Assembly: GCF_051903065.1 (NCBI RefSeq)
Contig: NZ_CP178442.1
DNA from: Escherichia coli
Lineage (GTDB): Bacteria; Pseudomonadota; Gammaproteobacteria; Enterobacterales; Enterobacteriaceae
Strand: one strand, 5' to 3'
DNA length: 37,672 nucleotides
Shown here one piece after another: positions 12,966 through 13,883 of the stretch; positions within the stretch are counted from its first letter, which is position 1, and each line of letters opens with the position of its first letter. The translations under genes and the position numbers were made by a program. The notes beneath the pieces were generated by a model. The model was given only the letters and a program-made list of their open reading frames with translations, was not told the origin of the DNA and made no database searches.

Positions 12966-13174
12966 AGTTAGCATTACAATTAATTGAAAAACAAAAGAAA
13001 AAACGGCCCTGAAAAAGGAAATATTATATGTAACATAGGAGTGATCTATCTTTTAGAAAAAAGAAATTAGAAAAAAAGAATAGAGCGCATTGTGAATTTT
13101 TTGAGTTGAAATCAGCAAAATCACAAGATGAGGTCAGACCAGAGCGTACGGATTCATATGCTGCATCGAAGACA

Positions 13175-13230
13175 TTCCGCTTCCTCGCTCACTAACTCGC
13201 TACGCTCGGTCGTTCGACTGCGGCGAGCGG
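13175..13230. promoter_or_regulatory. ColE1/pMB1-like primosome assembly site (PAS / single-strand initiation signal) homologue
   Basis: ttccgcttcctcgctcactaactcgctacgctcggtcgttcgactgcggcgagcgg differs at only a few positions from the pBR322 sequence CTTCCGCTTCCTCGCTCACTGACTCGCTGCGCTCGGTCGTTCGGCTGCGGCGAGCGG as I recall it. Confidence 0.5.
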
Positions 13231-13825
13231 AGTCATTTCTCACATATCGCTGGTAATTCTGTTGTTGTTCCTTCGGTGATGAGTCGCTTGATAGCCTCTA
13301 AAACACGCTCAGACGCACGAAACGGGGTTTAAATGCCCTTCAGGCATGAGAGGCGCGAAAAACGCTTACAGAGGCTTTCTGTTCATCAGAATCTGATCCT
13401 GTGAAGACCGAGAAAGTTCTCATGTTTAGTCACAACCTGAATATTTCATTCCGAGGGCGGTTTAATATAACTAACTGATTTTATTGAATACTATGAAAGA
13501 GTTCTTTTAATTATGATCCTCATTTTGCTAACCGAGGATCTTCTCATGTTTCAATAAAATACCTTTAATATCAACATGATATGTTATTTTGCCAATTGAT
13601 TTATGTGACCACATCATTTCAACGATACATAAATCAACAGATCCAGTAATGCCCCCTCCCCAAAATGACACAGAGAAGCCCTGAATCGCGCTCTGCCGCT
13701 TCGTTCGGTACAACCATGAGGGAAACCATGCAAAATAAAAAAAATCACTTAGAACGCGTTACAGAGCGTTTTAAGGCGATGTCGGAAAGAGCCATATCTC
13801 ACCTGTTCTGATGTTTTTTTAACAA

Positions 13826-13841
13826 GCACTTTTAAGAGTGC
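13826..13841. promoter_or_regulatory. imperfect palindrome gcacttttaagagtgc upstream of stbD (putative autoregulatory operator/promoter region)
   Basis: Dyad symmetry with one mismatch about 40 bp upstream of the stbD start, followed by a tattat -10-like hexamer. Confidence 0.35.
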
Positions 13842-13883
13842 TTTTAAAGATGCTATTATGCCAATGAGACAAGCGGAGGGCTT

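What the first reader, a model, noticed from the sequence alone, without database searches (positions are those of the whole stretch)
12966..13883. About 900 bp without a convincing ORF between the origin and the stbDE module
Apart from a doubtful 61-aa minus-strand ORF (13528..13713), this stretch has no credible coding potential but contains several hairpins (for example gatcctc-N12-gaggatc near 13513-13538) and the PAS-like element. Non-coding stretches of this size next to an R6K-type origin could hold an additional origin (alpha/beta-like), a replication enhancer, or a regulatory RNA.
Basis: inference. Interest (0 to 1): 0.3.

Follow-up and report, generated by a model that had tools for sequence, protein, structure and literature searches.

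The report
Gene-free origin flank, mosaic replication signals
This 0.9-kb gene-free stretch of an IncX4-family plasmid is the outer part of its replication origin followed by accessory DNA signals: a ColE1-type primosome loading site, leftover binding sites from a different replication system, a conserved hairpin element and the toxin-antitoxin promoter; it is mostly ordinary plasmid housekeeping DNA, not a hidden gene or a proven second origin.

Summary
The window is plasmid pSD11 (NZ_KM212169.1). The stretch 12966-13883 really has no gene. RefSeq annotates nothing there in about 78 near-identical E. coli plasmids, and every small ORF is broken in relatives that are 94-96% identical.

It is a mosaic of cis-acting DNA:
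- 12966-13140: the A+T-rich unwinding side of the iteron origin.
- 13174-13242: a primosome assembly site 96-98% identical to ColE1-type ssiA.
- 13243-13379: an extension shared with 1.5-kb Col(MG828) plasmids.
- 13380-13668: a lineage-specific spacer. It holds two orphan 22-bp repeats matching the pi-type iterons of mcr-1 IncX4 plasmids 19/22, and a GATC-bearing inverted repeat that is the best conserved block.
- 13669-13776: element "E2", found in IncX1, IncX4 and probably IncX2. It ends in a conserved hairpin.
- 13777-13883: the stbDE promoter and operator.

The origin is not R6K-type: the initiator is closer to F RepE than to pi. Nothing supports an alpha/beta-like origin. A small RNA in E2 is possible but unproven.

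The orphan iterons and the stacked origin modules in relatives point to repeated swapping of rep-origin cassettes. Interest is modest.

The parts
12817..12965 (+). Context, just left of the finding: three DnaA boxes (12817, 12829, 12843) and five 22-bp 'type A' iterons (CCATAAATCTGTCCC). A sixth copy at 12612 lies in the rep promoter region.
   Evidence: 7 matches in the window against 0.12 expected. The Rep_3 initiator gene is at 11511-12518, minus strand.
12966..13140 (.). A+T-rich flank of the iteron array, the probable DNA unwinding element. Its conserved core is 13033-13095, with the 13-mer-like GATCTATCTTTTA (13043-13055), A-tracts and the DnaA-box-like TGTGAATTT (13091-13099).
   Evidence: GC is 0.28-0.33. 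The core is nearly invariant in relatives whose overall identity is ~73-75%. The order DnaA boxes, iterons, AT-rich DUE is that of RK2 oriV (PMC4980987). The role is inferred from architecture; opening was not tested.
13174..13242 (-). n'-type primosome assembly site (ssi), a homologue of ColE1/pMB1 ssiA. The active strand is inferred to be the minus strand, which reads ...GAGGAAGCGGAAT.
   Evidence: It is 96-98% identical over 56-61 nt to small ColE1-type plasmids. One of them, pEC159, has Rop and RNAI (2101-2203 +) placed so that the fork meets the site from the GAGCGG end. The site keeps its position and polarity in IncX1, pi-type IncX4 and the A- and C-type modules. 53 of 69 columns are invariant in 11 modules.
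13243..13379 (+). 'P2' extension of the PAS, ending in a small hairpin (AAACGC-TTACAGA-G(G)C TTT, about 13359-13380). It is shared with 1.5-2.3-kb Col(MG828) plasmids.
   Evidence: 78-81% identity to hundreds of Col(MG828) plasmids, contiguous with their PAS. It is absent from IncX1 and pi-type IncX4. Function unknown.
13406..13427 (-). Orphan pi-type iteron B1 (AAACATGAGAACTTTCTCGGTC).
   Evidence: It matches the iteron consensus of pi-type IncX4 plasmids 19/22. That independent consensus finds only two sites in the 37.7-kb window at up to 3 mismatches, against 0 expected. The exact consensus occurs 4 times in tandem in L006. B1 is deleted in 3 of 11 related modules.
13515..13540 (.). Inverted repeat IR1, GATCCTC-N12-GAGGATC, with two GATC sites 22 bp apart. 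Its right arm overlaps B2.
   Evidence: The block 13505-13543 is the best conserved part of the PAS-to-E2 module: 89% identity to nine distant modules and 32/39 invariant columns. Folding z-score is -3.6 / -2.8. A possible counterpart, GATCCtttttGGATC, sits between the PAS and E2 in IncX1 and pi-type IncX4. That correspondence was judged by eye only.
13530..13551 (-). Orphan pi-type iteron B2 (AAACATGAGAAGATCCTCGGTT). With its A+T-rich right flank (to about 13583) it is homologous to the last iteron and flank of a pi-type origin.
   Evidence: 19/22 match. It is 96% identical over 25 nt to the operator iteron upstream of pir in L006. The flank similarity to L023 and L006 was seen in the sequences. 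Its CATG core is changed to TGTG in 5 of 11 modules.
13631..13665 (.). Conserved block AAAT.AA.AGATCCA.TAA.G..CC.T.CC, of unknown role.
   Evidence: 22/35 invariant columns in 11 modules.
13669..13776 (+). Element E2, a conserved non-coding element of IncX plasmids. It starts CAC(A/T)GAGAAGCCCTGAATCG, contains a second CCGCTTC motif (13696-13702), and ends in the hairpin AGAACGCG-N6-8-(A)GCGTTTTA(A/G).
   Evidence: 1430 plasmid records match. Identity is 87% to IncX1 and 90% to pi-type IncX4, although their flanks are unalignable. RNAalifold predicts two stems, with GC/AU/GU alternation at one pair. The tail hairpin is more stable on the plus strand in 12 of 13 variants and equal in one. An E2-like element lies right after the gamma-origin DnaA box in IncX2 plasmids. 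The embedded 27-aa ORF is not conserved.
13777..13883 (+). stbDE regulatory region: inverted repeat 13819-13848 (AAGCACT...GTGCTT) over the -35 hexamer; -35 TTAAGA (13832-13837), 16-bp spacer, -10 TATTAT with TG (13854-13859); SD GGAGGG (13875-13880); ATG at 13884.
   Evidence: Promoter scan and inverted repeat I7. 13740-14200 is 98% identical to IncX1 stbDE loci. The window's E2/stbDE junction corresponds to a deletion between two copies of the AACGC hairpin that are present in IncX1 L005.

Best explanation
The stretch is gene-free cis-acting DNA made of modules of different ancestry.

1. **12966-13140.** This is the A+T-rich unwinding side of a Rep_3 iteron origin (order: DnaA boxes, five iterons, DUE). 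The RepE-like initiator and DnaA would open the duplex here and DnaB would be loaded (inferred).
2. **13174-13242.** This is a PriA-type primosome assembly site homologous to ColE1 ssiA. Once rightward unwinding from the DUE makes the minus strand single-stranded, PriA-PriB-DnaT-DnaC could load DnaB on it. That helicase would travel 5'->3' back towards the iterons, giving priming and a second fork. Primers made there would be extended rightwards. This step is inferred from polarity only.
3. **13243-13668.** This is a lineage-specific insert. It has a PAS extension shared with Col(MG828) plasmids. It also holds the remains of a pi-type (IncX4 cluster I) origin: two orphan iterons around 103 bp of A+T-rich DNA, plus a half-iteron inverted repeat with two GATC sites. 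These remains were most likely left by rep-origin cassette swapping.
4. **13669-13776.** E2 is an IncX-wide conserved element ending in a hairpin. It most likely acts as a plus-strand structured signal (a terminator-like or insulating hairpin, or a small transcript) between the origin and downstream genes.
5. **13777-13883.** This is the autoregulated stbDE promoter.
For: **Non-coding.**

**DUE.**
- GC is 0.28-0.33.
- The core with a 13-mer-like motif is nearly invariant against relatives that are 73-75% identical overall.
- The canonical order of elements is as described in PMC4980987.

**PAS.**
- 96-98% identity to ColE1-type plasmids.
- The RNAI and Rop context in pEC159 fixes the polarity.
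- Position and polarity are conserved in all IncX loci examined.
- ColE1 ssiA is a PriA-dependent site for lagging-strand initiation (PMC3167613).

**Cassette swap.**
- The Rep is RepE-like rather than pi and 29% identical to IncX4 pi.
- The flanking backbone is 95-99% identical between the two plasmid types.
- IncX4 plasmids are reported to fall into a pir-type cluster I and a cluster II (PMC5428312).

**Orphan iterons.**
- Two sites match the pi-type consensus against 0 expected.
- Reciprocally, type A iterons occur in the pi-type plasmid at L006 516 and 649.
- Whole orphan origin modules are stacked in L004, L020 and L023.

**E2.**

**stbDE promoter.**
Against: - No function was tested. The DUE, the PAS activity and the promoter all rest on homology or consensus matches.
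- The PAS geometry differs from ColE1. There the site lies downstream of the leading-strand start on the displaced strand. Here the DUE lies on the other side, so the mechanistic role is uncertain.
- The PAS and E2 do not fold better than shuffled sequence (z about 0).
- No strict IHF site occurs in the region.
- The 'relic' reading of B1/B2 fits poorly with the very high conservation of 13505-13543 (89%, better than the PAS). That block may be functional.
- The conservation counts are not independent, because the modules are visibly recombinant.
- E2 has no conserved promoter. Its T-run is partly inside the stem, so it is not a canonical terminator.
Confidence: 0.6

Rival explanations
1. 13400-13600 is a second, conditional origin, or an alpha/beta-like site. 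Two pi-type iterons flank 103 bp of A+T-rich DNA. The origin would fire when a pi protein is supplied, for example by a co-resident pi-type IncX plasmid. Leading-strand synthesis running leftwards would then expose the PAS in exactly the ColE1 geometry.
For: - The two iterons are in direct orientation, 124 bp apart, around DNA of 27-34% GC.
- By homology with pEC159, the PAS polarity suits a fork arriving from the right.
- The mirror arrangement exists in pi-type IncX4: two type A iterons 133 bp apart around A+T-rich DNA.
- The block around B2 is highly conserved.
Against: - The window has no pi gene. tblastn finds only the weak Rep_3 similarity of the resident rep.
- B1 is deleted in 3 of 11 modules. 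The TGAG core of B2 is mutated in 5 of 11.
- The conserved part is the inverted repeat, not the iteron core.
- No DnaA box lies next to these repeats.
- IncX1/R6K alpha and beta origins sit in long inverted repeats with oriT, elsewhere on the plasmid.
Confidence: 0.1
2. E2 (13669-13776) encodes a small regulatory RNA on the plus strand. It would act on replication or on the downstream stbDE or J-domain genes.
For: - E2 is conserved in 1430 plasmids across IncX1 and IncX4, with unalignable flanks.
- Stem 1 alternates between GC, AU and GU at one pair.
- The terminal hairpin tolerates only changes that give G-U pairs on the plus strand. It is more stable on that strand in 12 of 13 variants and equal in the window's own P2 tail.
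- The IncX2 version has a different stem sequence but the same loop and T-run.
Against: - There is no Rfam family.
- There is no promoter-like site upstream in the window, and no upstream sequence is conserved between lineages.
- The folding energy is not better than shuffles (z -0.6).
- The covariation amounts to one or two events between two clades.
- The T-run is largely inside the stem.
Confidence: 0.2
3. The orphan iterons are kept by selection as decoys. They would bind and handcuff the pi initiator of competing pi-type IncX4 plasmids, and the type A iterons in pi-type plasmids would do the reverse. This would make plasmids with unrelated initiators incompatible.
For: - Foreign iterons are present reciprocally in both lineages.
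- A perfect 17-nt type A iteron is kept in L006 amid unalignable flanks.
- Complete orphan arrays are retained in L004, L020 and L023.
- It is established knowledge that cloned iterons exert incompatibility.
Against: - The iteron core decays in many modules.
- Recombination alone explains the shared segments.
- Entry exclusion by the shared transfer system would already limit co-residence.
- There are no experimental data.
Confidence: 0.1
4. The stretch encodes one or more small proteins, for example the 61-aa minus-strand ORF or the 27-aa MQNKKN... ORF, which has a good Shine-Dalgarno sequence.
For: - GAGGGAAACC-ATG precedes the 27-aa ORF (sequence).
- One RefSeq record annotates an 88-aa hypothetical protein over the 61-aa ORF region.
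Against: - There are frameshifts and stops in relatives that are 94-96% identical.
- The start codon is missing in distant relatives.
- Substitutions fall mostly at codon positions 1 and 2.
- There is no family match.
- PGAP leaves the region empty in all but one of the 40 records listed.
Confidence: 0.03

Closest known systems
ColE1/pMB1 ssiA (n'-pas, PriA-dependent primosome assembly site)
   Same: 13174-13242 is 96-98% identical in sequence. It has the CCGCTTC/GAAGCGG motif and the GCGGCGAGCGG arm. It lies within ~100 bp of the place where strands are first separated.
   Different: In ColE1 the site lies downstream of the RNA II-primed leading strand, on the displaced strand (PMC3167613). 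Here it flanks a Rep_3 iteron origin, with the DUE on the opposite side. It would therefore load a helicase that moves back into the origin. Activity is untested.
Iteron origins of the RK2 oriV / F ori2 type (DnaA boxes, iterons, A+T-rich DUE, Rep_3 initiator)
   Same: The order of elements is the same. The repeats are 22 bp. The initiator has Rep3_N and Rep3_C domains and its best solved relative is F RepE. One iteron lies in the rep promoter.
   Different: Only one 13-mer-like motif was recognised. There is no strict IHF site. An additional PAS lies just beyond the DUE.
R6K (IncX2) gamma origin with its alpha and beta origins
   Same: The plasmid backbone family is the same (bis, ddp3, MOBP/MPF_T). 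The iterons have 22-bp periodicity. B1 and B2 resemble R6K iterons (AAACATGAGA...). An E2-like element follows the gamma origin in IncX2 plasmids.
   Different: The initiator is not pi and the functional iterons are unrelated. No PAS is seen between the gamma origin and E2 in IncX2. Alpha and beta origins map to long inverted repeats elsewhere.
ssi accessory region of pHW126-family small plasmids (pIGRK, pIGMS31)
   Same: Both have an ssi-like palindrome next to an iteron-type origin. In those plasmids it is dispensable for replication, but its loss raises copy number and causes multimerisation. This is a plausible phenotype to test here.
   Different: The Rep family and replication mode are different. 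No sequence comparison was possible, because the sequences are only in figures.
Auxiliary iteron clusters such as P1 incA and F incC
   Same: Both are extra initiator-binding repeats outside the origin core, on the far side from the rep gene.
   Different: Those clusters bind the plasmid's own initiator and control copy number. B1 and B2 match the iterons of a different initiator that pSD11 does not encode.

Membership tests
n'-type primosome assembly site (ColE1 ssiA) | Sequence homology to the ColE1/pMB1 site next to an RNA II/RNA I origin | tested here: met
   96-98% identity over 56-61 nt to many small plasmids. pEC159 carries Rop and RNAI at the expected places.
n'-type primosome assembly site (ColE1 ssiA) | Stable hairpin in the single strand | tested here: inconclusive
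   DNA fold of -12.1 kcal/mol with z -0.14 against shuffles. The sequence is G+C-rich, so shuffles fold equally well.
n'-type primosome assembly site (ColE1 ssiA) | Lies on the lagging-strand template downstream of the leading-strand start | tested here: not met
   By homology, the active strand is the minus strand. The DUE and iterons lie to the left, so for a fork leaving the DUE rightwards the site is on the leading-strand template.
n'-type primosome assembly site (ColE1 ssiA) | PriA-dependent priming of single-stranded DNA | not testable with these tools
   Needs an M13 ssi-cloning assay or an in vitro PriA ATPase/priming assay.
Rep_3 iteron origin (DUE part) | Adjacent Rep_3 initiator, tandem iterons and DnaA boxes | tested here: met
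   Pfam Rep3_N 1.6e-33 and Rep3_C 5.4e-21. Five iterons plus one in the rep promoter. Three DnaA boxes.
Rep_3 iteron origin (DUE part) | A+T-rich segment with 13-mer-like repeats next to the iterons | tested here: inconclusive
   GC is 0.28-0.33. One 13-mer-like motif, GATCTATCTTTTA, sits in a block conserved across relatives that are 73-75% identical. Only one such motif was recognised.
Rep_3 iteron origin (DUE part) | Initiator-dependent strand opening | not testable with these tools
   Needs KMnO4 or P1 nuclease footprinting.
R6K-type (pi-dependent) origin, gamma/alpha/beta | Encodes pi | tested here: not met
   The resident Rep scores F RepE 5e-17 and pi 6e-11. It is 29% identical to IncX4 pi. 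No other pi-like ORF was found by tblastn.
R6K-type (pi-dependent) origin, gamma/alpha/beta | Pi-type 22-bp iterons | tested here: inconclusive
   Two solitary copies match the IncX4 pi-type iteron 19/22. There is no array, and the core is mutated or deleted in many relatives.
R6K-type (pi-dependent) origin, gamma/alpha/beta | Alpha/beta origins lie within long inverted repeats carrying oriT | tested here: not met
   The only long inverted repeat is at 10920-11014 / 19398-19492. This placement of alpha/beta is described for IncX1 in PMC3332091.
Small regulatory RNA | Match to a curated RNA family | tested here: not met
   Rfam E-value scan of 12000-15500 gave only chance hits outside the stretch.
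Small regulatory RNA | Own promoter and terminator, and a conserved structure with covariation | tested here: inconclusive
   No promoter lies upstream of E2. The terminal hairpin is conserved and strand-asymmetric. 2 of 15 predicted pairs have compensatory changes.
Type II toxin-antitoxin (stbDE / RelE-ParE) promoter-operator | Sigma-70 promoter overlapped by a palindrome just upstream of the antitoxin gene | tested here: met
   TTAAGA-16-TATTAT with TG at 13832-13859. Inverted repeat 13819-13848. The toxin matches ParE_toxin at 3.3e-14. Autoregulation itself was not tested.

The most novel reading that the evidence does not exclude
IncX4-family plasmids may keep binding sites for each other's replication initiators. 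pSD11-type plasmids, with a RepE-like initiator, carry two pi-type iterons. Pi-type mcr-1 plasmids carry two pSD11-type iterons. Several relatives carry complete orphan origin modules. If these sites are maintained by selection, they would act in one of two ways: as decoy or handcuffing sites that interfere with sibling plasmids, or as dormant origins usable with a co-resident initiator. Either way, competition between plasmids would be encoded in non-coding DNA. The IncX-wide E2 hairpin element would then be a further undescribed origin-proximal signal.
Probability: 0.12. Interest if true: 0.6.

Novelty: new member of a known kind. Interest (0 to 1): 0.3.

Why it matters
For annotation, the gene-free 0.9 kb can be labelled as origin DUE, ssi/PAS, origin relics, E2 and the stbDE promoter. 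It should not be treated as empty, or as an R6K-type origin.

For plasmid biology, the comparison shows three things:
- 'IncX4' covers at least three unrelated initiator/iteron sets (A, C and pi) on one backbone.
- The rep-origin cassettes are exchanged around a conserved PAS-E2 anchor.
- The exchanges leave orphan iterons or whole orphan origins behind.

This bears on replicon typing and on predicting incompatibility among mcr-1 and other resistance plasmids. E2 and the GATC inverted repeat are conserved non-coding elements with no assigned function. They are cheap to test by deletion.

Tried and rejected
- **Rfam.** The scan of 12000-15500 at E<=1 gave only chance hits (mir-155 on a palindrome at 14944-14981, and GNAS-AS1) and nothing in the stretch.
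- **Coding potential.** It was rejected by ORF conservation and family searches.
- **Thermodynamic folding.** The PAS, P2 and E2 fold no better than shuffles on either strand. Only 13500-13585 stands out.
- **IHF.** The strict consensus WATCAANNNNTTR has no site in the stretch.
- **Terminator scan.** The hits at 13210-13230 (inside the PAS) and 13683-13671 were judged to be consensus noise.
- **Promoter scan.** The pair at 13589-13617 (+) and 13595-13567 (-) lies in sequence that is not conserved in relatives, so I did not pursue it.
- **Tus/Ter, XerCD (cer/dif) and ArgR sites.** I looked for these by eye only and saw none. This was not tested with a tool.
- **The pi-type iterons as the conserved functional unit.** I first read them this way. 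The 11-module alignment showed that the iteron core decays while the overlapping inverted repeat is invariant.
- **IncX2 and E2.** BLAST could not link the IncX2 E2-like element to IncX1/X4 E2. That link rests on matching end motifs, position and hairpin form.
- **Literature.** Searches for a description of this region in IncX4 plasmids, or of ssi sites next to R6K origins, found nothing specific in the held library.
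Full report
**Identity and observation**

The window is the complete plasmid pSD11 (NZ_KM212169.1, E. coli from swine, 37,672 bp). MOB-suite types it as IncX4, MOBP and MPF_T. Its RefSeq annotation has nothing between the replication gene region and stbD at 13884.

In the RefSeq E. coli complete genomes, 78 genomes carry at least 80% of the stretch. PGAP lists no feature under the match for all but one of the 40 records shown.

The largest ORFs are 61, 48, 48, 44 and 42 aa.
- The 61-aa minus-strand ORF is frameshifted in a 95%-identical relative (L003). It has an in-frame stop in a 96%-identical one (L011).
- All the ORFs are riddled with stops in relatives that are 60-75% identical.
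- Substitutions do not favour third codon positions.
- None matches Pfam or NCBIfam.

The surrounding 86 nt are the only part that folds better than shuffled sequence (z -3.6 / -2.8).

**Left part: the origin itself**

The gene at 11511-12518 (minus strand) encodes a Rep_3 initiator (Rep3_N 1.6e-33, Rep3_C 5.4e-21). To its right lie, in order:
- an iteron in the promoter region (12612);
- three DnaA boxes (12817-12851);
- five 22-bp iterons, CCATAAATCTGTCCC (12850-12965).

The finding starts right after the last iteron. GC is 0.28-0.33 up to about 13140.

Against relatives whose overall identity is only 73-75%, a core at 13033-13095 is almost invariant. It includes GATCTATCTTTTA, which resembles the oriC 13-mer, together with A-tracts and TGTGAAT.

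The order DnaA boxes, iterons, A+T-rich DUE is that of RK2 oriV (PMC4980987). I therefore read 12966-13140 as the unwinding element. This is an inference from architecture.

**The origin is not R6K-type**

- The best solved relatives of the pSD11 Rep are F RepE entries (E about 5e-17). Pi of R6K scores 6e-11.
- The Rep of mcr-1 IncX4 plasmids (pSH15G1397) is a clear pi orthologue (6.5e-64). It is only 29% identical to the pSD11 Rep.
- The two plasmids share their flanks: bis/ddp3 at 95% and the right side from 14997 at 99%.
- So window 11448-14996 is a swapped rep-origin-TA cassette.
- This agrees with the published split of IncX4 plasmids into a pir-type cluster I and a cluster II (PMC5428312).

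**The PAS**

- Window 13174-13242 is 96-98% identical over 56-61 nt to many small ColE1-type plasmids.
- In one of them, pEC159, Rop lies to the left and RNAI (Rfam, 105 bits) at 2101-2203 on the plus strand. RNA II and the leading strand therefore run leftwards through the site.
- It follows that the strand complementary to CCGCTTCCTCGC is the displaced, active strand. In the window this is the minus strand. From my own knowledge, this strand carries the GAAGCGG motif of n' sites.
- ColE1 ssiA is the PriA-dependent site for lagging-strand initiation (PMC3167613).
- The element has the same position and polarity relative to rep and the iterons in IncX1, pi-type IncX4 and all A- and C-type modules. 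53 of 69 columns are invariant in 11 modules.
- Unlike in ColE1, the strand-opening region lies on the other side. A helicase loaded here would move back towards the iterons. The likely role is to set up the second fork or to prime after rightward unwinding. This is inferred and not shown.

**13243-13668, a lineage-specific mosaic**

IncX1 and pi-type IncX4 have only 55-75 bp between the PAS and E2. pSD11 has about 430 bp.

- *The P2 extension.* The first 137 bp continue the homology with 1.5-2.3-kb Col(MG828) plasmids (78-81%). They end in a small hairpin.
- *The orphan iterons.* Next come two 22-bp repeats, B1 (13406-13427) and B2 (13530-13551), both on the minus strand. The iteron consensus of the pi-type plasmid was derived independently from L006, where it occurs as four exact tandem copies. 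It finds exactly these two sites in the whole window at up to 3 mismatches, with 0 expected. B2 and its right flank resemble the last iteron and the A+T-rich flank of pi-type origins.
- *The reciprocal case.* The pi-type plasmid carries two type A iterons (L006 516 and 649). The second has 25 nt of the pSD11 DUE attached.

**Relatives show the process at work**

On this backbone there are three initiator/iteron sets:
- A (pSD11);
- C (rep_cluster_991, whose Rep is 36% identical to A);
- pi.

L004 and L020 have a C-type Rep, a C module and then a complete orphan A module. pUA1141 has an orphan C module, then pi with its array, then an A iteron. The simplest reading is repeated stacking and partial deletion of rep-origin cassettes, which leaves relics.

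**Conservation within the module**

I aligned 11 PAS-to-E2 modules.
- B1 is deleted in 3 of them.
- The CATG core of B2 is TGTG in 5 of them.
- So the pi-binding core is not what is kept.
- The block 13505-13543 is the best conserved piece: 89% identity to nine distant modules and 32/39 invariant columns, against 80% for the PAS. It holds the inverted repeat GATCCTC-N12-GAGGATC and two GATC sites 22 bp apart.
- The modules are visibly recombinant, so these counts are not independent.
- A similar GATCCtttttGGATC sits between the PAS and E2 in IncX1 and pi-type IncX4, within a cluster of four GATC sites. I judged that correspondence by eye.
- The function is unknown. Candidates are a binding site for a dimeric protein or SeqA/Dam-dependent control. 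Both are speculation.

**E2**

- Window 13669-13776 matches 1430 plasmid records. It is 87-90% identical in IncX1 and pi-type IncX4 although the flanks differ.
- The embedded 27-aa ORF is not conserved.
- RNAalifold on 15 variants predicts a 5' stem, (G/A)AAGC...GCTT(C/T), with GC, AU and GU at one pair. It also predicts 3' stems. In all, 2 of 15 pairs show compensatory change.
- The terminal hairpin (AGAACGCG...GCGTTTTA) is more stable as plus-strand RNA than its complement in 12 of 13 variants and equally stable in the window's own P2 tail.
- The same hairpin closes P2, both in the window and in Col(MG828).
- In IncX2 (R6K-type) plasmids an E2-like element lies right after the gamma-origin DnaA box. 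It starts with the same ACTGAGAAGCCCT. It ends in a hairpin with a different stem (GCC/GGC), the same loop TTAGA(G)A and GCGTTTTAGAAG. No PAS lies in between.
- BLAST alone does not link the IncX2 element to the IncX1/X4 one.
- There is no conserved promoter and no Rfam match.
- E2 is a conserved IncX element of unknown function. A structured plus-strand signal is my best guess.

**Right end**

- 13740-14200 is 98% identical to IncX1 stbDE loci.
- A promoter, TTAAGA-16-TATTAT with an upstream TG (13832-13859), is overlapped by the palindrome at 13819-13848. A Shine-Dalgarno sequence, GGAGGG, follows.
- IncX1 L005 has two copies of the AACGC hairpin about 190 bp apart. In the window E2 is joined directly to the second copy, which looks like a deletion between them.

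- *An additional alpha/beta-like origin.* This is not supported. There is no pi gene, the repeats are decaying, and the long inverted repeats where such origins lie in IncX1 are at 10920-11014 / 19398-19492.
- *A replication enhancer.* This is plausible for the PAS. In pHW126-family plasmids an ssi-like element is dispensable, but its loss raises copy number and causes multimers.
- *A regulatory RNA.* This remains open for E2.
- *A related experiment.* A transposon study of a pi-type IncX4 plasmid reported that insertions were lacking only in pir, tsxB and mcr-1 (PMC8725589). This gives no sign that the non-coding flank is essential, but the paper does not address it directly.

**Verdict**

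The finding is real but largely ordinary. It is origin-flanking cis DNA with a known kind of primosome site and a TA promoter. The orphan iterons, the stacked origin modules and the unassigned conserved elements (IR1 and E2) add modest interest.

Noticed in passing
window 10920-11014 and 19398-19492: The only long inverted repeat of the plasmid: 95 nt, 99% complementary, 8.4 kb apart. It brackets ddp3, bis, rep, the origin, the TA genes and small ORFs. Its position recalls the alpha/beta long inverted repeats with oriT of IncX1/R6K plasmids.
   Followed up: partly
window 14999-15418 and 17079-17498: A perfect 420-bp direct repeat flanking the J-domain gene region. It is also present in the pi-type IncX4 plasmid.
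   Followed up: partly
window 14944-14981: A perfect 14-bp-arm palindrome, GTGTTAATGCTAAT-N10-ATTAGCATTAACAT, in the gap after the 118-aa antidote-like gene. It gave a spurious mir-155 Rfam hit.
   Followed up: no
L004 (NZ_CP122693.1) 1227-3290; L020 (CP057048.1) 1455-3460; L023 (pUA1141) 1133-4020: Relatives carry stacked origin modules. In L004 and L020 a C-type Rep with its own origin is followed by a complete orphan A-type origin (DnaA boxes, iterons, DUE, PAS). In L023 an orphan C-type origin sits next to a pi replicon.
   Followed up: partly
L006 (pSH15G1397, mcr-1 IncX4) 516-535 and 649-668: The pi-type mcr-1 IncX4 plasmid carries two pSD11-type iterons around 110 bp of A+T-rich DNA, between its own origin and the PAS. 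This is the mirror image of B1/B2 in pSD11.
   Followed up: partly
L025 (pNGX2-QnrS1, IncX2) about 2395-2480 minus strand; L026 1215-1300: An E2-like element lies directly after the R6K-type gamma-origin DnaA box. It has the same first 13 nt, the same loop and the same T-run as E2, but a swapped hairpin stem. No PAS is present there.
   Followed up: partly
L008 (pHS13-1-Col, Col(MG828)) 114-331: Tiny 1.5-kb plasmids carry the PAS plus P2 block. The PAS variant of the C-type and L012-type IncX modules differs from the Col(MG828) one by a single base. A 'rep protein' CDS annotated across this block (1-585) looks spurious.
   Followed up: no
L005 2600-2625 and L006 821-860: Four GATC sites fall within about 40 bp between the PAS and E2 in IncX1 and pi-type IncX4 plasmids. 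This is a possible Dam/SeqA target cluster next to the origin.
   Followed up: no
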